Shown piece after piece: positions 4,004-17,809 of a stretch of 64,000 nucleotides of DNA (position 1 is the first letter of the stretch; each line of letters opens with the position of its first letter). The position numbers were made by a program, and so were the translations under genes. Location: the NCBI GenBank assembly GCA_022564635.1, contig JADFLA010000002.1, forward strand, positions 394-64,393. Reading direction: 5' to 3'. The notes under the pieces were generated by a model. That model saw nothing but the letters and a program-made list of their open reading frames with translations, had not been told where the DNA came from and made no database searches. This DNA is from Nanobdellota archaeon. Lineage in GTDB: Archaea; Nanobdellota; Nanobdellia; Woesearchaeales; GW2011-AR4.

Positions 4004-4846
4004 TTAATTGAATAACATAAACCCCACATCCTCAATTATTTCATTTTTTAACTTTATTCTATTTTTATCAACAATTTCAAATTTTTTGTTTTCATTCAAT
4101 AATTCTAAAAGATCATTATTTATTGTAGAATTAATTTCATTGAATTCTAATATATTATTATTTAATTTATAGTCTTTAAACATAAAAACGCCATTATTTT
4201 CTGTATAAAGAACAGGGCCCTTAAGCATTGTTTCAAACTTATTTACCAATTCATTAGAGTATTTTTTTATACATTCAAAATTTATTTTTGCTATTTCTAT
4301 TGATTTTTGGCAATTAAAACTATGCGGAAAATGGCTTAACAAAGTAATATCAAAGTACCTTATTGCATAATTAATATAGAACGAAAATTTAAATCCCTCT
4401 GAATTATTTAATGCTAGTAATATAAAATCGTTCTGTATCTTTTGTTGTTTTTCCTTGTTTTCCATAAAAAAATCTACACAACATTGTGGATAGTCTAAAA
4501 GCTCTCCAACTGCTTTATCATCATTTTTATATTCTAATAATTTGAGAAATTTTGCTTTGTTTTTATCTTTAGAAATGTAGATGTGATATAAACCAGAACC
4601 AGGATAATTTATAGGAACTTTTTTTGCAACATTGGCATAACTACCTTTTCCTTTATCCATTATTTTTATAACCTTAAAATCTGATATTTCTAAATGCAAA
4701 TTTTCTTTATTGCAGAAATCTTTTATATTTTTTAATTCAACTTCATTTGCATCTAACCTTACTAATTTTTTAATATCATTCAATAAATATAGAATCTCTA
4801 AAGATCTAGTATAATTACCAAAAATTTTTAATAGTTTGTCTATCAT
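4004..4846 (-). CDS. hypothetical protein (DUF483-like, YPxCC motif)
   Basis: LLDYPQCCVDFF motif recalls archaeal DUF483 proteins; 280-aa intact ORF. Confidence 0.45.
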   Translation of the reverse strand: MIDKLLKIFGNYTRSLEILYLLNDIKKLVRLDANEVELKNIKDFCNKENLHLEISDFKVIKIMDKGKGSYANVAKKVPINYPGSGLYHIYISKDKNKAKFLKLLEYKNDDKAVGELLDYPQCCVDFFMENKEKQQKIQNDFILLALNNSEGFKFSFYINYAIRYFDITLLSHFPHSFNCQKSIEIAKINFECIKKYSNELVNKFETMLKGPVLYTENNGVFMFKDYKLNNNILEFNEINSTINNDLLELLNENKKFEIVDKNRIKLKNEIIEDVGFMLFN

Positions 4847-10165: not shown

Positions 10166-10348
10166 GGTATATCTAAAATAAAAGAAGAATATGTAAATAT
10201 TAGAGAGCTTATTGAAGAATATGGTTTTCACAATACATTTATTGATAATAAAACAAATCGTAGGTACGCAAAAGTTTATGCTCAGGAACATTAATTTAAT
10301 GGATGATTATAATTCTGCATTAGAAAGATATGTTGCTTAATTAAAAAA

Positions 10349-13300
10349 TCACTTCCTCAACAAAATAAACCCTGCTCCAATTACAAATATCGCAGTTCCT
10401 ATAAATATAACAATAAATATTGCTAACAAAACATTATATCCTTCTGTTTCTGTAAAAGGAATTGCAGCAGGAGGTACTGGTTTTTTCTCTAATATAATTT
10501 TTGGCTTTATTATTTTTACCTTTGGCTTTTCTTTCTTAACTTCCTCTTTAACCTTCTTGACTAACTCACATTCCTCAACATCTAGGTTAACTGTATCTGT
10601 CTCGCTTAATTTACCATCATAATAGGTATTGATGGTTATAGGATATGTTCCAGGTAAAACATCGGTACTTATGGACTCTGTAAATAGTTTTGTAAACCTA
10701 TTATCATCAGTGCCTTCATCAAGCTCTATTCCTGTTACTAATGAATTTATACTTAAATCACTATTCATAACTTCAAGAGTTACATCATCTTCATCTTCTG
10801 AGCCTGTGTTTATTATTTCTGTATTAATTGAAATTGTTCTTTGGCATTTTATTGTTGATGGTGTTAATGCAGACCTTATTATTCTTATTTCATGGTTTTC
10901 TTTCTCTACTTCAAGCTCCAGATTAAATTCAATCTCATGAGTTGTTCCATTTTCATCTTCGCCTTCTACCTCAATTAAAACATCAAAAGTATCTTCTTCA
11001 ACTTCTAAAGGAATCTCAAACTCTATCTTTTCTCTCTCATCCTTTCCTGCCTTTAAGTCAAATTCTTTTGCATCTTCATCTAAATCATCACCATCATCAA
11101 TATCAAGAATAGTCACAATAATTTCAATATCTTCAATTTCCAAATCTTCATCATCTGTAAATAAGTTCTCTACCTCTATACTAAATATAACTTTAGAGCC
11201 TGGTTTTGCTTCCTTACTTATTTTATCCCCATCTATAAGGTTTTTATCAGTTTTCCCGTCTACTTTTACATCAAGATCACTTATTTGTAATTTTGGGCCT
11301 TTAGTAACTGTTATATTATATGATTGGGTTTCTGTTAAGCTTCCATCGCTTACATTTACGGTTACATTATTTACACCTACTTGAGATAATATTGGTGTCC
11401 ATGAAATAACTCCAGTTGAAGAATCTATGCTCATTCCGCTCGGACTTGTTAATAAGGAGAAAGTTAAAACATCTCCATCAGGATCTGTTGCATCAACATC
11501 ATAAGTATATTTTTGTCTTTCTATAGCTCTTGTTACTGGTGTTGATGTTACCACAGGAGCACCATTTGTTCCATTTATTTGCGTAAAGTATGTGGAAAAG
11601 TGCGGAACATTAAATTTCAAAACTCCATTAACAGTATCATATGTTACATTTGTACATACAGTATCTGGACATACAGTCGCACCTGTAGTGCTTTCAAACC
11701 CCGATGTATTAAATATCAAAGGAGTTTTTGTAAAGTTAAGCCCTTTCATAATTAGCGCTGCAGATCCATTTAATCCAGGGTAAGTTACAGTATCAACAGA
11801 TATGAAACCTTTACTTATGTTAATTGCATCTTCTAAGTTAACCACTCCACTAAAGTTTAATGTTTCATTAGTATAGCCAATGCTTCCAAAAGTGCTTTGA
11901 TTAACAACCACATCAGTTGCATTTTGCCTCTCAGTCTCATTTAGACTTAAAACAGGACTTGTAAGTTCATCTGAAACTATTTCTGTAGTCACTATTAAAA
12001 CCCATTCATTTCTTGCTTCTGCTCCTGCAGTATCATTCACAATAACTGTTATGTTATAAATTCCTCCATCTAAATTAGTAACAGTAACATTTGAAGAATT
12101 AGTTGCAATTTTAGTAGTTGTATTTCTAAACCATGTAGCATTTACATAATCTCCTGCATCAACATCAGTAAATGTAATATCAAATCTTTGGCTTCCAACA
12201 GATGATGCAATAGTCTTATTTTTGGTTGGAGAGAATGACGTTATTGTGGGTGCATCATTAGTATTAGTTACAGTTATTGTTATTGTCTCTGAACCATTCT
12301 TTGTTGAATCTTTTGTTACAAAAGTTATTGTGTTGCTGCCAACCTCATCATTTGTTGGTGTCCATGAAACCGTTGCTAGTGAATTGTTTGCATCTTTTGT
12401 AAATGCAATTGGGTTAGTATTAGATGTAAAATTAGACGTAAAAGTCAAGCTGTTATTATCAGGATCATTAACAGTTATATTAAACTTCAGAGTAGAATCT
12501 TCAGTCGCAGCCTTATTTCCTATAGGGTCTAATACTGGTTCTCTGTTTGTATTTGTAACTGTAACCTGCCATTCCTGCTCTGCTGAATTTGAATTATTAT
12601 CTTGTACTTGCAGTTTTATTACATAATTTCCTGCTGCTGTAAAGTTATTTGTAAGATTAAAAGTAAAGTTCTGTACATTACTCGCATTTACATTGTCTAC
12701 AAACCATGTAAAGTTTATTGGATCATTATCTGGATCTGAAGCATTAATAGTAAACGATAATGTCTTATTTTCAGCAACAGCTGGACTGGTGTCTGTACTG
12801 GAACCGTCTATTGTATTATTCCAAGTCCATTTATTAATTACAGGATCATTATCTCTAATCATTGTAAAATTAAATGTTGCTGATTTTGAGGAATTCAATA
12901 AACTATCATTAGCCAAAACATTCCAGAAATAGGTTGTATTAGAATCAAGATTAGTTAATTGTAAACTTGTTGAGGTTGTTGTTGCATTAAATGTTATATT
13001 ATTGCTATTATCGGAGAAAAATACATGATATGTTATCTGATCATTTTCAGCATCTATTGAATTATCCCATTTCAATGTAGCTTTCCCTGCAGAAGATGTA
13101 ACATTAGAACCACTTTCTGGGCTTATTAAATTTGGTGTGGTAGGAGCGTCATTAACATTAGCAACAATAATTGTTATATTATTGCTTGAACTTGTCTGGT
13201 TGCTTGTATCAATTGCAGTAAATATAATGAAATTTATTCCATTAAAGTTCAAATCAGGAGTAAAATTTGCAATTTGAGTTGCATTATTTATATGCACAGT

Positions 13301-15862
13301 TACATTATCTGGCTGGGTAAAATTATATTTCAAATTATCTCCGTCAATTGATTCGAAGAATAATGATAAATTCAAAGTTGTTGAATCATTGTCTTCTATA
13401 ACATTTATTGTTGGTATATTTGCCCTAAAAATTGGTGGGCTATCAGTATTGTTCACTGTTACGGTTATATTTGAAGTATTGGAATTTCCAGCACTGTCAA
13501 ATGTAATTACCTTTAAAGCATAAATTTCATCTGAATAGCTTCCATTTGTGGTATCCCAATTAAATGTAAAGTTGATTTCTGCTGAATTAAAGACCAAAGA
13601 ATCATTTATGAAATATTCTAATCTGCTCAAATTTAAGTCTGTAGCTGTAACATTAAATTCCACAATTCCCTTAACAAATGAATTATCCGTAGGATTAGTT
13701 ATATTTACATTTGGATTATCATCATCTCTTACTAGACTCATAAATGTAGTGTTTGTTTGAGATGTATTCTCGCTTTTTATGGTAAAAGTGAGATTAAAGC
13801 TGCCAATAGATCCTGGCGCATTTCCGCTCATTTCTTTGTGGAATATTGAAACTGTCGCTGCCTGACCCCTTTCAACATAAATATTCCTTATATTTGAATC
13901 ATTCCATAAATTAGGAAAAGTGAAAAGATTTCCAGTAGGTGGGTAAAAAGTAAAATTATGTCCTACATTTCCAGTGTTGTTTATTGTAAATGTTCCAACA
14001 ATTCCCGAAGCATCTGATCTTCTATGGGTTATAGTCTCATTTGGAGAAGATAGCCAGGAATTATCTGTAGGAACCTCTACTGTTAATAATACACTCTTAT
14101 GGGATATGTCTGAGGCTGTAATGTTGAATGTTCCAGTATAATTACCTGGATTTGTATGTCTAGGGATTGCTACATTTACATCCAATGTTACATTTGAAGC
14201 TGCTGATATTGTATTAAAATTAAAAGAGGTTACATTTAACCATACGCTTTGCACTGTGTCTTGAATAAACGTTATATTCACATCATTAAGAGCAAAGTTT
14301 CCTGTTGAGTTTATATCTAATGATACTGTTGAGTTTTCTGCATGGTTTATTGTTGTGGTTAAGTTTGTAGCTGTAGTCATTTGTGGATTATTAGTAATAG
14401 TGACTATACTTAGAATTACTTGTGCAAACGTAACCTGAGTAAAATCGTTATTAGTCCAGTTTCTATTCCAGAATATGCTATGAGTTCCTGTTGTTCCTCC
14501 AGCAATTGAAATATTAAAGGTTACAGTACAATTTTGGCTGCTGTTTATGTTTAAACTGCAGCTTTGATAGCTACCGGATATAGCTGAAAATTTCGCAGAC
14601 GAAAATGAATCAAGAATAACACCAGTATCATACATCGGATTGCTGCCTGTATTCTTCAAAGTTACATTTACTGAAATGATTTTGTCTGATTGATTTAAAT
14701 CCGAAACAGTTACATCTTGTGGTGTTAATGTTGCAGTTGTTGCATTTTTTGTTGTAAAATTTATTGTTGTTGTGTTTGTATTTCCTGCTTTGTCTATTGC
14801 AGTAAAGGTTATTTCAAAATCATTTTCTGTTGAAGGTGCTGTTAAATTGCATATATGAATATCTCCTTCTACGCTAAAATTACCTACTGTTACACCATTT
14901 AACCCACAAGTCACGTTCAATAAATTTGTGTCTGCTACATCCGCTGTTGCATTAAATACTGCTTCAGGACTAATAAAATTCCTAGAATTTGCCTCTGTTG
15001 TTGGGTTTGAGATGCTTGGATTTGTATTATCAACGGTTATATCTAATACAGTATCTATATTTGAAAAACCCAAGGTATCGTTAAAAAATATTGTTATGTT
15101 GTAAAAAGTTTCAGCATTCAAGCTAGTATTCCAGACAAAGTACCATAAGTCTCCTGTTTTAGTCATCGTAAAATTACTGTTGTTAAAATCTATTAAAGAA
15201 ACATTAACGCTATGTGCAGCATCCGTTATATTTACTGTTACATTAACTAAACCTGCTATAAAAGAATTGTTTGCAAACGGATTAATCCATTTGTTAAATA
15301 CTGGTGAGACATTGTCATTATTATCTCCGGGTGTTTGAACATTTAAATCGATAATATTTGATGAACCATCTGGGTGTCTACCAATAGGAATATTAGCAGT
15401 AGAGCTTGCATAAGTAACACTATCAACCAAATTTCCAGAATTGTTATATAAGAAGATAGTATCGCCGCTGTTAGTCAAAATAAAGTTTGGAACGGCTAAT
15501 CCATATTCAATAATTTTAACTCCACTTGCATTAACATTAGGATAACTATTATTAAAAAAAGAAAAATTAAATGCCAAAACTACAAAACCTTTTGAGGGTA
15601 TTATTGCATTATTTATTGTAAAATTACCTGCTGTGGACGATGTTTCTGAAATATTCCAGTCTGTTAAATCCACTGAAGAAGAACCATTATTAAAAAGTTC
15701 AATCCATTCCCCTTTCTTGTCTGGAGTGGCAGAAGAGTCAGGCAAAAACTCATTAACGAAAATATTAGCACTAACAAACCCAACCATAGAAACAAGTAAT
15801 AAAACTAATAGAATTACAAATAACACACTTCTTTTTCCACTCTTTTTCAAATTATCACCCAA
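10349..15862 (-). CDS. giant membrane-anchored surface protein with LTD-like N-terminal domain and cadherin/Ig-like repeats (1837 aa)
   Basis: Signal/TM VLFVILLVLLLVSMVGFVSA; lamin-tail-like GEWIELFNNGSSSVDLTDWNI; repeated modules joined by NDAPT/NREPV linkers; very many N-x-S/T sequons; C-terminal TM + RK; non-ATG (TTG) start in the track. Confidence 0.85.
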   Translation of the reverse strand: MGDNLKKSGKRSVLFVILLVLLLVSMVGFVSANIFVNEFLPDSSATPDKKGEWIELFNNGSSSVDLTDWNISETSSTAGNFTINNAIIPSKGFVVLAFNFSFFNNSYPNVNASGVKIIEYGLAVPNFILTNSGDTIFLYNNSGNLVDSVTYASSTANIPIGRHPDGSSNIIDLNVQTPGDNNDNVSPVFNKWINPFANNSFIAGLVNVTVNITDAAHSVNVSLIDFNNSNFTMTKTGDLWYFVWNTSLNAETFYNITIFFNDTLGFSNIDTVLDITVDNTNPSISNPTTEANSRNFISPEAVFNATADVADTNLLNVTCGLNGVTVGNFSVEGDIHICNLTAPSTENDFEITFTAIDKAGNTNTTTINFTTKNATTATLTPQDVTVSDLNQSDKIISVNVTLKNTGSNPMYDTGVILDSFSSAKFSAISGSYQSCSLNINSSQNCTVTFNISIAGGTTGTHSIFWNRNWTNNDFTQVTFAQVILSIVTITNNPQMTTATNLTTTINHAENSTVSLDINSTGNFALNDVNITFIQDTVQSVWLNVTSFNFNTISAASNVTLDVNVAIPRHTNPGNYTGTFNITASDISHKSVLLTVEVPTDNSWLSSPNETITHRRSDASGIVGTFTINNTGNVGHNFTFYPPTGNLFTFPNLWNDSNIRNIYVERGQAATVSIFHKEMSGNAPGSIGSFNLTFTIKSENTSQTNTTFMSLVRDDDNPNVNITNPTDNSFVKGIVEFNVTATDLNLSRLEYFINDSLVFNSAEINFTFNWDTTNGSYSDEIYALKVITFDSAGNSNTSNITVTVNNTDSPPIFRANIPTINVIEDNDSTTLNLSLFFESIDGDNLKYNFTQPDNVTVHINNATQIANFTPDLNFNGINFIIFTAIDTSNQTSSSNNITIIVANVNDAPTTPNLISPESGSNVTSSAGKATLKWDNSIDAENDQITYHVFFSDNSNNITFNATTTSTSLQLTNLDSNTTYFWNVLANDSLLNSSKSATFNFTMIRDNDPVINKWTWNNTIDGSSTDTSPAVAENKTLSFTINASDPDNDPINFTWFVDNVNASNVQNFTFNLTNNFTAAGNYVIKLQVQDNNSNSAEQEWQVTVTNTNREPVLDPIGNKAATEDSTLKFNITVNDPDNNSLTFTSNFTSNTNPIAFTKDANNSLATVSWTPTNDEVGSNTITFVTKDSTKNGSETITITVTNTNDAPTITSFSPTKNKTIASSVGSQRFDITFTDVDAGDYVNATWFRNTTTKIATNSSNVTVTNLDGGIYNITVIVNDTAGAEARNEWVLIVTTEIVSDELTSPVLSLNETERQNATDVVVNQSTFGSIGYTNETLNFSGVVNLEDAINISKGFISVDTVTYPGLNGSAALIMKGLNFTKTPLIFNTSGFESTTGATVCPDTVCTNVTYDTVNGVLKFNVPHFSTYFTQINGTNGAPVVTSTPVTRAIERQKYTYDVDATDPDGDVLTFSLLTSPSGMSIDSSTGVISWTPILSQVGVNNVTVNVSDGSLTETQSYNITVTKGPKLQISDLDVKVDGKTDKNLIDGDKISKEAKPGSKVIFSIEVENLFTDDEDLEIEDIEIIVTILDIDDGDDLDEDAKEFDLKAGKDEREKIEFEIPLEVEEDTFDVLIEVEGEDENGTTHEIEFNLELEVEKENHEIRIIRSALTPSTIKCQRTISINTEIINTGSEDEDDVTLEVMNSDLSINSLVTGIELDEGTDDNRFTKLFTESISTDVLPGTYPITINTYYDGKLSETDTVNLDVEECELVKKVKEEVKKEKPKVKIIKPKIILEKKPVPPAAIPFTETEGYNVLLAIFIVIFIGTAIFVIGAGFILLRK

Positions 15863-15972
15863 CGTAAAGAATTAGTTTAAAAAATCTAAATTTATTTATA
15901 AGTATTATTGTGTTGGAGTGGTTATTTTGATTAGTTATTTGTTGGTAATTAATTTTTTATGTTAATTTTTAT

Positions 15973-17790
15973 TTATAGTTGTTTTTTCCTAACTGTCCTA
16001 GCAACTAAGAAAGCAGCACCAGCAATTAAAATTATATTTATTATAACTACTGCAATCCAGAATCCGCGTTTTTTTACTAAAGGAACCTCAGTTGTGGTTG
16101 TAGGCTGCAAAACAGATATTTCCTCGCCTTCTGTTGTTTCTTCTTCTATTTCTGGGGCAGTTTCAACAACTTCTGTCTCCCCTACTATTTCCTCTTCTAC
16201 TACTTCCTCAACAACTTGACCAGCGCAAGCCTCAACTTCCAAATTAGCTGTTCTTGTTTCCCATAAAATCTCTTCTTGAATGTATGCCTTCACCTCTATT
16301 GGATATTTCTTTGCTTCCATACCCCTATCAATATTTATTGTAAGTTTTTTTGTAAATTCATTATCAGTATCAAATGGATCTTCTTCTAGCTTAATATTTC
16401 TCTTTACAAAATTAATGCCTAAATCAGAATTTATAATTTCAATTTTTGCATCTGCTTCTGTTCTTGCACCTATATTTTTTATTGTTGCTGTTAATGTTGA
16501 GCTTCCACTACACTTTATCTTTTCTGGGAAAAGTGATGCTTTACTTACCATAACCTCTCTGCTTTCTTTATCTATTCTCAACTTCAGATTCATCTTTGCA
16601 CTATGAGTATTACGATTTTCATCCTCCCCTTCTAGTTCTATAACAACATCGTATGTGTCCTGGACAACTGATATGGGTATGTTAAAAAATACATCTATGT
16701 CAACATTTCCTCCAGCATCTACATCAAATTCTTTTGATTCCTCTTCTAGATCATCTCCATCATCTAGTTCTTCTATTGTAACCTTGATAGTTATATCATT
16801 TATATCTATATCTTCATCATCCGTAAAAGTATTAACTATATTAAAGCTAAATCTTAACTCCGATCCTGGCCCTGCATCTTCACCACCAAAATTTAGTTTT
16901 TTACCATCAGGAACACCTAAATCATTTCCACTTTCAGATCTGAGAGTTCCATCAGAGCCTCGCTTTATCCTAGTAGTAAGAAAAACATCAAGATCATCAA
17001 TTATTAAGCCACCACTTATCTCGGCTTTTAGATCAAATAAATCAGTGTTAAATTCTGCTGAGGTAAGTCTTACCTTTCCTAAAGTCACATTGCCTGTTGA
17101 GGTATCTTTTGGAATTGTTATGTTAAATCCAATTGGTTTTGTTTCACCAATTGAAAGGGTAAAATTGCTCTTATTAGTTTGCAAACTAAATTTACTATCA
17201 CTAAAACCAAAAATTAAATTTGTTATATCGCCAGTGCCAGTATTGGTTATGTCAAAAGTTCCCTTCTGAGTTGAGTCAAGGCTTGCACTTCCCAAATTTA
17301 ATTCAGAAGAAGGACTTGTACTCACACTAAAAGTAGGAGTTACATTGACATTTATTATTGTTGTATCAGAAATTGTTGCTGGATCTGAAAGGCTTCCATT
17401 TGCAGCTGTCAAAGTTCCAGTATATGTACCAAGAGTTTGTCCACTAGGTATTACAACAGAAAAGCTTGCACTCTGGCTAGCACCTGCAGCTATGGATGGA
17501 TTTGTTATGTTGCTTAAAGAACTGATAGTCAGTTTATTAGTCCCATCAGTATGAGTTAGTATAAAGCCGGTAAAATTTATATCAAGTGCCGTTGTACCTG
17601 TATTATCTATAGTAACACTTGAACTGATAGTATTACTAACTACACTTGATAGATTTACAAAATCATCACTAAATTTAAAATTAGGCACAGCATTTACACT
17701 CATTGCATACAAAAACAGAACAAAAATTGTTATAAATAAAAATTTCCTCATTTTAATCATCAATGATATTATTCTAGAGTAGTTATTCAA
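15973..17790 (-). CDS. membrane-anchored surface protein, paralogous in its C-terminal module to the giant neighbour (605 aa)
   Basis: Signal peptide MRKFLFITIFVLFLYAMSVNA, beta-rich T/S/N-rich ectodomain, acidic DDEDIDINDITIKVTIEELDDGDD module, C-terminal TM + basic tail; true start probably the internal M (MRKF). Confidence 0.8.
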   Translation of the reverse strand: MNNYSRIISLMIKMRKFLFITIFVLFLYAMSVNAVPNFKFSDDFVNLSSVVSNTISSSVTIDNTGTTALDINFTGFILTHTDGTNKLTISSLSNITNPSIAAGASQSASFSVVIPSGQTLGTYTGTLTAANGSLSDPATISDTTIINVNVTPTFSVSTSPSSELNLGSASLDSTQKGTFDITNTGTGDITNLIFGFSDSKFSLQTNKSNFTLSIGETKPIGFNITIPKDTSTGNVTLGKVRLTSAEFNTDLFDLKAEISGGLIIDDLDVFLTTRIKRGSDGTLRSESGNDLGVPDGKKLNFGGEDAGPGSELRFSFNIVNTFTDDEDIDINDITIKVTIEELDDGDDLEEESKEFDVDAGGNVDIDVFFNIPISVVQDTYDVVIELEGEDENRNTHSAKMNLKLRIDKESREVMVSKASLFPEKIKCSGSSTLTATIKNIGARTEADAKIEIINSDLGINFVKRNIKLEEDPFDTDNEFTKKLTINIDRGMEAKKYPIEVKAYIQEEILWETRTANLEVEACAGQVVEEVVEEEIVGETEVVETAPEIEEETTEGEEISVLQPTTTTEVPLVKKRGFWIAVVIINIILIAGAAFLVARTVRKKQL

Positions 17791-17809
17791 TATTTAAATA
17801 TTGTGGTTT

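What the first reader, a model, noticed from the sequence alone, without database searches (positions are those of the whole stretch)
10349..17790. Two adjacent surface proteins share a ~280-aa acidic C-terminal stalk module upstream of the TM anchor
The 1837-aa and 605-aa proteins have unrelated ectodomains. Their last ~280 residues before the TM helix align collinearly. The giant protein reads FTDDEDLEIEDIEIIVTILDIDDGDDLDEDAKEFDLKAG...DTFDVLIEVEGEDENGTTHEIEFNLELEVEKENHEIRI...IKCQRT...NSDLSINS (DNA about 10540-11380). The smaller protein reads FTDDEDIDINDITIKVTIEELDDGDDLEEESKEFDVDAG...DTYDVVIELEGEDENRNTHSAKMNLKLRIDKESREVMV...IKCSGS...NSDLGINF (DNA about 16173-17028). This looks like a modular system in which a common cell-proximal stalk and anchor carries exchangeable distal adhesion domains. 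In a putative episymbiont these are prime candidates for host-contact proteins.
Basis: partly seen in the sequence, partly recalled or inferred. Interest (0 to 1): 0.6.

Follow-up and report, generated by a model that had tools for sequence, protein, structure and literature searches.

The report
Shared membrane-anchor module of Woesearchaeal surface proteins
Two neighbouring surface proteins of a tiny uncultured archaeon (Woesearchaeota) share an ancient, sugar-free, acidic two-domain pedestal with a membrane anchor; thousands of different surface proteins in this group use it, and no domain catalogue lists it.

Summary
P0001 (1837 aa) and P0002 (605 aa) share about 245 aa at 42% identity (E 3e-45). 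The alignment scores z=52 against shuffles, and identity is higher (46%) at non-acidic columns, so this is not acidic low complexity. AlphaFold models the shared part with confidence (pLDDT 92) as two beta-sandwich domains. A non-conserved linker, a C-terminal TM helix and a short basic tail follow.

The module is lineage-wide. It occurs in 57/61 sampled families of the order and in 4325 protein clusters. In 425/429 proteins it sits within 110 aa of the C-terminus. It carries lamin-tail/Ig arrays, papain-like and subtilisin-like proteases and beta-helix domains, and it also occurs alone (about 360 aa). The three paralogue lineages in this genome are ancient.

The module is depleted in N-glycosylation sequons (0.43 against 5.6 per 100 aa in ectodomains) and keeps two invariant cysteines. 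The genome also encodes a canonical, anchor-less S-layer protein, so the module is probably not the lattice itself.

Best reading: a common membrane-proximal pedestal and anchor with exchangeable cargo, which probably has its own binding role. Host contact is untested. Side finding: a Nup98-type self-cleavage domain (HFS) lies about 100 aa upstream of the module in the giant protein.

The parts
10349..15862 (-). P0001, giant surface protein (1837 aa as listed; the likely start is TTG 15850, giving MKKSGKRS... and a signal peptide)
   Evidence: The deposited form has 1812 aa.
15407..15772 (-). Lamin-tail domain (P0001 residues 31-152)
   Evidence: PF00932, 59.5 bits against a cut-off of 34.3
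11588..11944 (-). Nup98/S59 (ZU5-superfamily)-like autopeptidase domain (residues 1307-1425). The HFS tripeptide is at 1421-1423 (DNA 11594-11602).
   Evidence: PF04096 scores 16.5 bits here, below threshold. Homologues P0182 (33.6 bits) and P0198 (30.2 bits) pass the 28.4 cut-off. H-F-[ST] sits at a fixed distance from the C-terminus in 45/97 homologues.
11303..11560 (-). He_PIG Ig-like domain (residues 1435-1520), directly before the module
   Evidence: PF05345, 61 bits
10565..11302 (-). Shared module, copy in P0001 (residues 1521-1766). Acidic beta-sandwich D1 is about 10901-11293. Beta-sandwich D2 is about 10571-10888 and holds the invariant Cys1673 and Cys1765.
10436..10564 (-). Lys-rich basic linker of P0001 (residues 1767-1809), not conserved with P0002
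   Evidence: read from the sequence
10352..10435 (-). C-terminal TM helix (residues 1810-1835) plus an RK tail. The stop codon is at 10349-10351, followed by a T6 run at 10343-10348.
15973..17790 (-). P0002, 605 aa as listed (likely start ATG 17760 or 17751; the deposited protein has 592 aa)
17014..17679 (-). Two N-terminal Ig-like beta-sandwich domains of P0002 (residues 38-259), carrying 9 sequons
   Evidence: AF2 model at pLDDT 84; weak CARDB, NPCBM_assoc and choice-of-anchor-D hits
16222..17011 (-). Shared module, copy in P0002 (residues about 260-523; D1 262-406, D2 413-520)
16069..16221 (-). Acidic E/T-rich disordered linker of P0002
   Evidence: pLDDT below 50; composition
15979..16068 (-). 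C-terminal TM helix and basic tail of P0002
   Evidence: helix 562-591 of the 592-aa form
15891..15901 (-). TATA-like box (TTATAAATAAA) upstream of P0001. No oligo-T run lies between the P0002 stop and this box.
   Evidence: read from the sequence; inference only
17791..17801 (-). TATA-like box (ATATTTAAATA) upstream of P0002
   Evidence: read from the sequence; inference only

Best explanation
The shared region is an ancient domain module that no catalogue lists. It is specific to Woesearchaeota and related Nanoarchaeota-class archaea. It has two beta-sandwich (Ig-like) domains: a very acidic D1, and a D2 stapled by two invariant cysteines. A flexible low-complexity linker, one C-terminal TM helix and a short basic cytoplasmic tail follow.

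The module acts as the common membrane-proximal pedestal and anchor for type-I surface proteins of this lineage. After Sec export the TM helix stays in the membrane; this is inferred, because no archaeosortase was found. The pedestal stays free of glycans close to the membrane, and whatever is fused to its N-terminus is held outward. Such cargo includes sequon-dense lamin-tail/Ig arrays as in P0001, two Ig domains as in P0002, proteases and beta-helix domains.

A cargo-less ~360-aa form is conserved at 50-90% identity, and sequons are selectively avoided. The pedestal therefore most likely makes its own specific contacts. It may self-associate through bridging cations, or it may dock to the underside of the separate, anchor-less canonical S-layer. 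This part is inferred.

P0002 and P0001 are two ancient paralogue lineages kept as a small-then-giant gene pair, probably co-expressed.
For: Shown:
- Real homology.
- A confident two-domain fold, pLDDT 92.2 and pTM 0.82. P0002 models as four beta-sandwiches, a disordered linker and a TM helix.
- Four copies in this genome, including a signal+module+linker+TM-only protein on C71.
- The module is present in 57/61 order-level and 138/151 phylum-sample genomes. It is found in 4325 clusters at E<=1e-3.
- The module ends within 110 aa of the C-terminus in 425/429 proteins. A C-terminal hydrophobic segment with a short basic tail is present in 65/66, 93/96 and 81/83 members of the three families.
- Cargo includes Peptidase_C1, Peptidase_S8 and NosD/beta-helix. 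Nine giants have ectodomains with no similarity to P0001's.
- In the tree, the bare clade has 97/88 support, the P0002 clade 100/100 and the lamin-tail giant clade 97/98. The subtilase protein P0155 nests in the giant clade.
- In the closest orthologues the module is more conserved than the ectodomain, for example 91% against 59%.
- Sequon density is 0.43 per 100 aa in the module and 5.63 in ectodomains. Observed over composition-expected is 0.59 and 2.02 respectively. Exactly two Cys occur in 397/429 modules.
- A small module gene lies directly upstream of the giant in 7 of 12 assessable loci and in L011.
- No archaeosortase was found, while the controls were positive.
- A canonical S-layer protein without a TM anchor is encoded elsewhere in the genome and in 132/151 relatives.
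Against:
- Nothing shows an interaction with the S-layer or with itself.
- Module genes are not linked to the S-layer gene. Presence of module and S-layer gene is statistically independent across 151 genomes: 121 have both, 17 the module only, 11 the S-layer gene only and 2 neither.
- Some giants carry divergent internal copies, so the unit is not exclusively membrane-proximal.
- The fold is a generic tandem Ig-like sandwich with no informative structural neighbour, TM-score about 0.35.
- The genome is 87% complete, so a missing archaeosortase is not proof of absence.
Confidence: 0.65

Rival explanations
1. The module proteins are themselves the S-layer. On this reading the two-domain acidic unit is a lattice-forming tile anchored by its own TM helix, as the NCBIfam name 'putative S-layer protein' implies. 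The giants would be tiles with extra outward domains.
For: NF033506 matches the module: E 1e-14 to 1e-15 for the window copies and 94.6 bits for the C9 paralogue. The distribution is near-universal. The acidic domains plus linker plus TM resemble the layout of Methanosarcina tile proteins (my own knowledge). P0002 is roughly collinear with the 627-position model.
Against: All scores fall below the family cut-off of 110 bits. The genome has a canonical Methanococcales-type S-layer protein: PF05124 at 42.8 bits against a cut-off of 23.9, 858 aa. So do 132/151 relatives. A preprint assigns that type to Nanoarchaeota S-layers (10.1101/2024.05.28.596244). PF07752 (MSTP) is absent. No S-layer structure appears among the top Foldseek hits for the module. 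Exposed S-layer faces are usually glycosylated, yet the module avoids sequons.
Confidence: 0.12
2. The module is only a passive spacer. Two rigid Ig-like domains would lift cargo off the membrane and make no specific interactions.
For: The fold is a generic tandem Ig-like sandwich. The module lies between TM and cargo. Internal copies in some giants behave like ordinary repeat units.
Against: A cargo-less form is conserved at 50-90% identity in at least 257 clusters and forms its own clade. The module is better conserved than the cargo. Sequons are depleted below the composition expectation while ectodomains are twofold enriched. There are invariant acidic clusters and an invariant Cys pair. 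The bare family keeps a conserved Glu in its TM helix and a conserved juxtamembrane motif.
Confidence: 0.2
3. The similarity is compositional (acidic low complexity), or it results from recent duplication or gene conversion between neighbouring genes.
For: D+E is 22-29% in the module, and the genes are adjacent.
Against: The alignment scores z=52 against shuffles, and identity is higher at non-acidic columns. BLAST with composition adjustment gives E 3e-45. The fold is confident. Each copy groups with orthologues from other genomes in strongly supported, separate clades, and the two copies share only 42% identity.
Confidence: 0.01

Closest known systems
NCBIfam NF033506 'PACE-CTERM-PROT, putative S-layer protein' (a computationally defined family of about 627 positions)
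   Same: Model positions about 226-474 align with the module in all four paralogues of this genome. P0002 and the C9 protein are roughly collinear with the model, including the C-terminal anchor.
   Different: Every score is below the 110-bit cut-off (39.8-94.6 bits). The family describes one protein architecture, not a module on many architectures. Its 'S-layer' name is untested, and no paper in the held library uses the term.
Shared anchoring modules of bacterial S-layer-associated proteins (SLH domains; the CWB2 triplet of Clostridioides difficile Cwp proteins). This rests on my own knowledge.
   Same: One conserved cell-proximal module is shared by many surface proteins with exchangeable functional domains, and a minimal form also exists.
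   Different: The fold is unrelated. No SLH or CWB2 hit appeared in the Pfam scans. Anchoring here is by a TM helix in the membrane, not by binding a wall polymer. The module is C-terminal and acidic.
Ig-fold surface proteins with a C-terminal TM helix in Nanobdella aerobiophila, proposed as SlaB-like anchors and surface enzymes (preprint 10.1101/2023.10.27.564410)
   Same: This is also a DPANN archaeon. [quoted passage not shown] The main S-layer candidate there also lacks a TM helix.
   Different: That work describes no shared, sequence-conserved module. Homology to the module here was not tested. Those proteins are described as glycosylated throughout.
Methanosarcina S-layer tile protein (MSTP, DUF1608/PF07752; PDB 3U2G/3U2H from my own knowledge)
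   Same: A pair of beta-sandwich domains, a negatively charged surface, then a tether and a C-terminal TM helix.
   Different: PF07752 finds nothing in this genome, while the Methanosarcina control is positive. There is no sequence hit to any PDB chain. These entries are not among the top 50 Foldseek hits.
ZU5-superfamily autopeptidases (Nup98/96 S59, GPS/GAIN) in large bacterial surface proteins (PMC3482391). This applies only to the side finding in P0001.
   Same: An autoprocessing-type domain ends in H-F-S just upstream of the membrane-proximal stub of a giant adhesin-like protein.
   Different: This would be an archaeal example. The P0001 score is below threshold, and close orthologues have Q/N/Y/G in place of His. 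Cleavage is untested.

Membership tests
NF033506 PACE-CTERM-PROT (putative S-layer protein) | Whole-protein HMM score of at least 110 bits | tested here: not met
   P0001 51.4, P0002 39.8, C71 protein 55.8 and C9 protein 94.6 bits. These are homologous regions, not family members.
CARDB (PF07705) | HMM score of at least 22.7 bits | tested here: not met
   The P0001 module scores 18.3 bits (D2 only) and the P0002 module 11.9 bits. The resemblance is at fold level only.
MSTP / DUF1608 S-layer tile (PF07752) | HMM match, or structural match to 3U2G/3U2H | tested here: not met
   No match in the whole genome at E<=1, with a positive Methanosarcina control. The entries are not among the top 50 Foldseek hits. 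There is no PDB sequence hit.
Methanococcales-type S-layer protein (PF05124 S_layer_C) | HMM score of at least 23.9 bits | tested here: not met
   The module proteins give no hit. A different protein of the genome does: C35, 858 aa, 42.8 bits.
Archaeosortase-processed C-terminal anchors (PGF-CTERM and similar) | An archaeosortase gene in the genome | tested here: not met
   PF09721 and TIGR04178 find nothing. The TIGR04178 control rings in Haloferax, Methanocaldococcus and Methanosarcina. The genome is only 87% complete.
Archaeosortase-processed C-terminal anchors (PGF-CTERM and similar) | A conserved signature motif (such as PGF) directly before the TM helix | tested here: not met
   No PGF or PEF motif is present. 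The tails read ...IPFTETEGYN-TM-RK and ...EVPLVKKRGFW-TM-RTVRKKQL. The bare family has its own conserved TEEKSLFQS motif.
Lamin-tail domain (PF00932), P0001 N-terminus | HMM score of at least 34.3 bits | tested here: met
   59.5 bits, residues 31-152
Nup98-96 autopeptidase S59 (PF04096), P0001 residues 1307-1425 | HMM score of at least 28.4 bits | tested here: inconclusive
   P0001 scores 16.5 bits. Homologues P0182 (33.6) and P0198 (30.2) pass, while P0169 (25.0) and P0177 (25.8) fall just below.
Nup98-96 autopeptidase S59 (PF04096), P0001 residues 1307-1425 | An H-F-S/T tripeptide at the C-terminal end of the domain (the cleavage site) | tested here: met
   HFS lies at 1421-1423, at profile position about 146/148. 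H-F-[ST] occurs in 45/97 family members at the same distance from the C-terminus.
Nup98-96 autopeptidase S59 (PF04096), P0001 residues 1307-1425 | Actual self-cleavage | not testable with these tools
   This needs expression of the fragment and mass spectrometry.

The most novel reading that the evidence does not exclude
The acidic, glycan-free pedestal could be the missing link between membrane and wall in these archaea. On this reading it docks, perhaps through bridging cations, to the underside of the anchor-less Methanococcales-type S-layer. The cargo-less ~360-aa form would be the dedicated anchor, a functional analogue of SlaB. Paralogous pedestals would plug adhesins and proteases into the same lattice. 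In the giants, a Nup98-type self-cleavage at HF|S would leave the 1400-aa glycosylated ectodomain held non-covalently on the pedestal stub. That would give a host-contact arm that can be released by force.
Probability: 0.15. Interest if true: 0.75.

Novelty: new variant of a known kind. Interest (0 to 1): 0.5.

Why it matters
No S-layer or envelope protein of a DPANN archaeon has been determined experimentally (preprint 10.1101/2023.10.27.564410), and Woesearchaeota remain uncultured. A single module that marks the membrane-anchored surface proteome gives three things:
- A simple sequence handle (one HMM) for listing candidate adhesins and surface enzymes in thousands of genomes.
- A defined, well-folding 25-kDa target for structural and binding work.
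- A concrete hypothesis for how an anchor-less S-layer and host-contact proteins are tied to the membrane.

The module is also a clear gap in the Pfam copy searched here, at 4325 clusters.

Tried and rejected
- Pfam on the isolated module: nothing above threshold.
- PDB sequence-profile search: nothing relevant.
- Foldseek against the PDB, for the module and for full P0002. It returned only generic tandem Ig-like arrays: transglutaminase C-terminal barrels, RbmA, ciliary ASH-domain proteins and cadherins. TM-scores were 0.14-0.38, and no informative neighbour appeared.
- MSTP/DUF1608 hypothesis: rejected.
- Archaeosortase processing: no enzyme was found.
- Phyletic correlation between the module and the canonical S-layer gene: none, because both are near-universal.
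- Genomic linkage of module genes to the S-layer gene: not seen in the coordinates.
- Literature: 'PACE-CTERM' gave no paper. 'Lamin tail' with DPANN gave nothing relevant. The Woesearchaeota metatranscriptome paper mentions S-layer genes among the top transcripts but gives no identifiers in its main text.
- Low complexity, or recent duplication or gene conversion: rejected.
Full report
**1. The observation**

The window has about 31% G+C. On the minus strand it carries two adjacent ORFs: 10349-15862 (P0001, 1837 aa) and 15973-17790 (P0002, 605 aa).

- BLASTP aligns P0001 1528-1765 with P0002 279-522 at 42% identity over 244 aa, E 3e-45 with composition adjustment. No other segment is significantly similar; the best has E 0.14.
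- The Smith-Waterman score is 494, against 50.8 +/- 8.5 for 1000 shuffles (z=52).
- Identity is 46% at columns without D/E and 43% overall.

The similarity is therefore real and is not caused by acidic composition. The homologous part is about 245-260 aa. The linker that follows is basic in P0001 and acidic in P0002. Both proteins end in a TM helix and a short basic tail.

**2. Gene starts and signals**

- A TATA-like box (17791-17801) abuts the listed TTG of P0002. ATG 17760 or 17751 is therefore the likely start, and the deposited protein has 592 aa.
- P0001 has a TATA-like box at 15891-15901 and an SD-like GGTGAT before a second TTG at 15850. That start gives a textbook signal peptide.
- No oligo-T run follows the P0002 stop, whereas a T6 run follows the P0001 stop. 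This fits read-through plus an internal promoter, but it is inference only.

**3. The fold**

An alignment of the P0001 module with 67 homologues (A1) gave an AlphaFold2 model with pLDDT 92.2 and pTM 0.82. The model has two all-beta sandwich domains.

- D1 is extremely acidic. Its acidic clusters are nearly invariant, including an I-D-D-x-D hairpin and a P-x-E-V-x-E motif.
- D2 carries two invariant cysteines at its beginning and end, C1673 and C1765 in P0001. Exactly two Cys occur in 397/429 modules.
- Full-length P0002 models as follows (pLDDT 84.3; numbering of the 592-aa form):
  - a signal helix
  - four beta-sandwiches at 25-118, 128-246, 249-393 and 400-507
  - a disordered linker at 512-553
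  - a TM helix at 562-591
- Foldseek finds only generic tandem Ig-like arrays, with TM-scores of 0.14-0.38.
- A profile search of PDB sequences finds nothing.
- Pfam has no significant hit on the module. CARDB reaches 18.3 bits on D2, below the cut-off of 22.7.
- The only named relative is NCBIfam NF033506 'putative S-layer protein', and all scores fall below its cut-off.

**4. Distribution**

The genome (1.43 Mb, 87% complete) holds four copies:
- The two in the window.
- A 363-aa protein on C71 that is only signal peptide, module, acidic linker and TM helix. It shares 52% identity with the P0001 module.
- A distant 425-aa protein on C9.

Source names identify the lineage as Candidatus Woesearchaeota.
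- The module is found in 57 of 61 genomes drawn from across the order and in 138 of 151 genomes of the phylum sample. That sample includes 27 of 34 genomes from other orders of the class. Copy number is 1-8 per genome.
- A profile search of 1.84 billion representatives finds 4325 clusters at E<=1e-3 and 1414 at E<=1e-30. Protein lengths among the 150 best hits listed run from 254 to 2941 aa.
- In 425 of 429 collected proteins the last module ends within 110 aa of the C-terminus.
- A C-terminal hydrophobic segment with a 3-10 residue basic tail is present in 65/66, 93/96 and 81/83 members of the three families.

**5. Exchangeable cargo and ancient paralogy**

Ninety-seven proteins of 1065-3084 aa (P0001's own record plus 96 others) carry the module. 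Most of them combine LTD, tandem-95/Big_9, PKD and He_PIG domains as P0001 does.
- Other cargoes are Peptidase_C1 with a beta-helix (P0152), subtilase S8 (P0155), NosD/beta-helix (P0170) and DUF4785 (P0204).
- Nine of them share nothing detectable with the P0001 ectodomain.

A maximum-likelihood tree of 118 modules shows three well-supported clades:

| Clade | Support |
|---|---|
| Bare, about 360 aa | 97/88 |
| P0002 family, about 575 aa | 100/100 |
| P0001-type giants | 97/98 |

- The subtilase protein nests among the lamin-tail giants, which is a cargo swap on a conserved pedestal.
- Some giants carry extra, divergent internal copies, which form their own clade (100/99).
- P0001 and P0002 are therefore old paralogues, not a recent duplication.
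- In the closest orthologues the module is better conserved than the cargo: 91% against 59%, and 77% against 61%.

**6. Gene order**

A smaller module gene lies immediately upstream of the giant on the same strand in L011. The same holds in 7 of 12 loci with enough upstream sequence, and many further pairs are visible in the coordinate tables. Bare genes are usually solitary.

**7. Glycosylation contrast**

| Region | Sequons | Per 100 aa |
|---|---|---|
| P0001 ectodomain | 104 | 7.0 |
| P0001 module | 1 | 0.4 |
| P0002 N-terminal domains | 9 | 3.8 |
| P0002 module | 0 | 0 |

Over 429 proteins the density is 0.43 per 100 aa in modules and 5.63 in ectodomains. Observed over composition-expected is 0.59 in modules and 2.02 in ectodomains. 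The pedestal is thus kept free of glycans while the cargo is coated.

**8. Is the module the S-layer?**

Probably not.
- The genome encodes a canonical Methanococcales-type S-layer protein at C35:1382-3958. It has 858 aa and scores 42.8 bits on PF05124, against a cut-off of 23.9.
- That protein has a signal peptide and no TM helix, and it ends in an E/T-rich tail.
- The same family is present in 132 of 151 relatives.
- A preprint assigns this tile type to Nanoarchaeota S-layers (10.1101/2024.05.28.596244).
- PF07752 (MSTP) is absent from the genome.
- No archaeosortase was found, while the controls were positive. The TM helix is therefore probably retained.
- Presence of the module and of the S-layer gene is uncorrelated, because both are near-universal. 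The genes are also not linked.

**9. Mechanism**

The following points are shown:
- The module is conserved and C-terminal.
- A TM helix follows it.
- Its cargo is exchangeable.
- A cargo-less form exists.
- Sequons are depleted in it.
- A Cys pair is invariant.

The following points are inferred:
- The module is the standard membrane-proximal pedestal and anchor of this lineage's surface proteins.
- It makes its own specific contacts: cation-bridged self-association, or docking under the anchor-less S-layer. The grounds are that the cargo-less form is strongly conserved and that glycans are excluded.

The rivals are a lattice-forming tile (0.12) and a passive spacer (0.20). The host-contact role of P0001 and P0002 is plausible but untested. 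No expression data could be obtained.

**10. Side finding**

P0001 residues 1307-1425 weakly match the Nup98-96 S59 autopeptidase (16.5 bits), and the match ends in HFS at 1421-1423.
- Homologues P0182 (33.6 bits) and P0198 (30.2 bits) exceed the 28.4-bit cut-off.
- H-F-[ST] sits 414-430 aa from the C-terminus in 45 of 97 family members. Close orthologues have Q, N, Y or G in place of His.
- ZU5-superfamily autopeptidases are known in large bacterial surface proteins (PMC3482391).
- Cleavage at F1422|S1423 would leave a 415-aa stub of He_PIG domain, pedestal and TM helix. That stub could hold the ectodomain non-covalently.

**11. Comparison and novelty**

Functionally the closest analogues are shared anchoring modules such as SLH or CWB2, but the fold and the mode of anchoring differ. 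Within DPANN, Ig-fold proteins with C-terminal TM helices have been noted in Nanobdella (10.1101/2023.10.27.564410), though not as a conserved shared module. I rate this a new variant of a known kind and set interest at 0.5. Earlier notes of this scan in other genomes point at the same protein families. I treated them as leads only.

Noticed in passing
window 11588-11944 (-), HFS codons 11594-11602: A Nup98/S59 (ZU5-superfamily)-like autopeptidase domain lies in P0001 and ends in H-F-S, about 100 aa upstream of the module. Two homologues pass the Pfam cut-off, and H-F-[ST] is kept in 45/97 family members at a fixed distance from the C-terminus. This suggests self-cleavage of the giant ectodomain from its pedestal stub.
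   Followed up: partly
outside the window: G000:C35:1382-3958 (+) (locus L080): A canonical Methanococcales-type S-layer protein: 858 aa, PF05124 at 42.8 bits, with a signal peptide, no TM anchor and an E/T-rich C-terminal tail. The family is present in 132/151 relatives. How it is tied to the membrane is unknown.
   Followed up: partly
outside the window: G000:C9:9671-10948 (+) and 11076-13250 (+): The fourth, distant module paralogue has 425 aa and no sequons, and it scores 94.6 bits on NF033506. A 724-aa signal-plus-TM protein follows it directly and shares the C-terminal Ig-like part of the same model. A protein class of about 415-470 aa of this type recurs in most genomes of the order.
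   Followed up: partly
outside the window: G000:C71:45070-46161 (-), and its homologues P0003-P0122: The cargo-less family keeps a conserved Glu inside the TM helix (..AGEVLLVIIAIL..). It also keeps a conserved juxtamembrane motif, LP(V/A)TEEKSLFQS. This hints at a TM-level partner or a processing signal, and it is absent from P0001 and P0002.
   Followed up: no
homologues P0145, P0151, P0160, P0170, P0175, P0181, P0184, P0190, P0196, P0205 and P0211: Some giant proteins carry one or two additional, highly divergent internal copies of the two-domain module. These copies form their own clade (100/99).
   Followed up: no
loci L014, L023, L029, L032, L033 and others: Many TPA 'binchicken' MAG records titled 'uncultured Methanosarcinales archaeon' encode this Woesearchaeota-type module at 40-71% identity. 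The organism labels of those records look wrong.
   Followed up: no
relatives, (for example G116:C11:11527-11817 and G053:C63:5318-5608): A recurrent ORF class of about 310 aa matches only the last part (positions 97-175) of the S_layer_C model in many genomes of the order. It may be a short S-layer-related paralogue.
   Followed up: no
window 17751-17801 and 15850-15901 (-): The mechanical ORF starts (TTG 17790 and TTG 15862) are probably too far upstream. A TATA-like box abuts the first, and an SD-like GGTGAT precedes a second TTG at 15850.
   Followed up: partly
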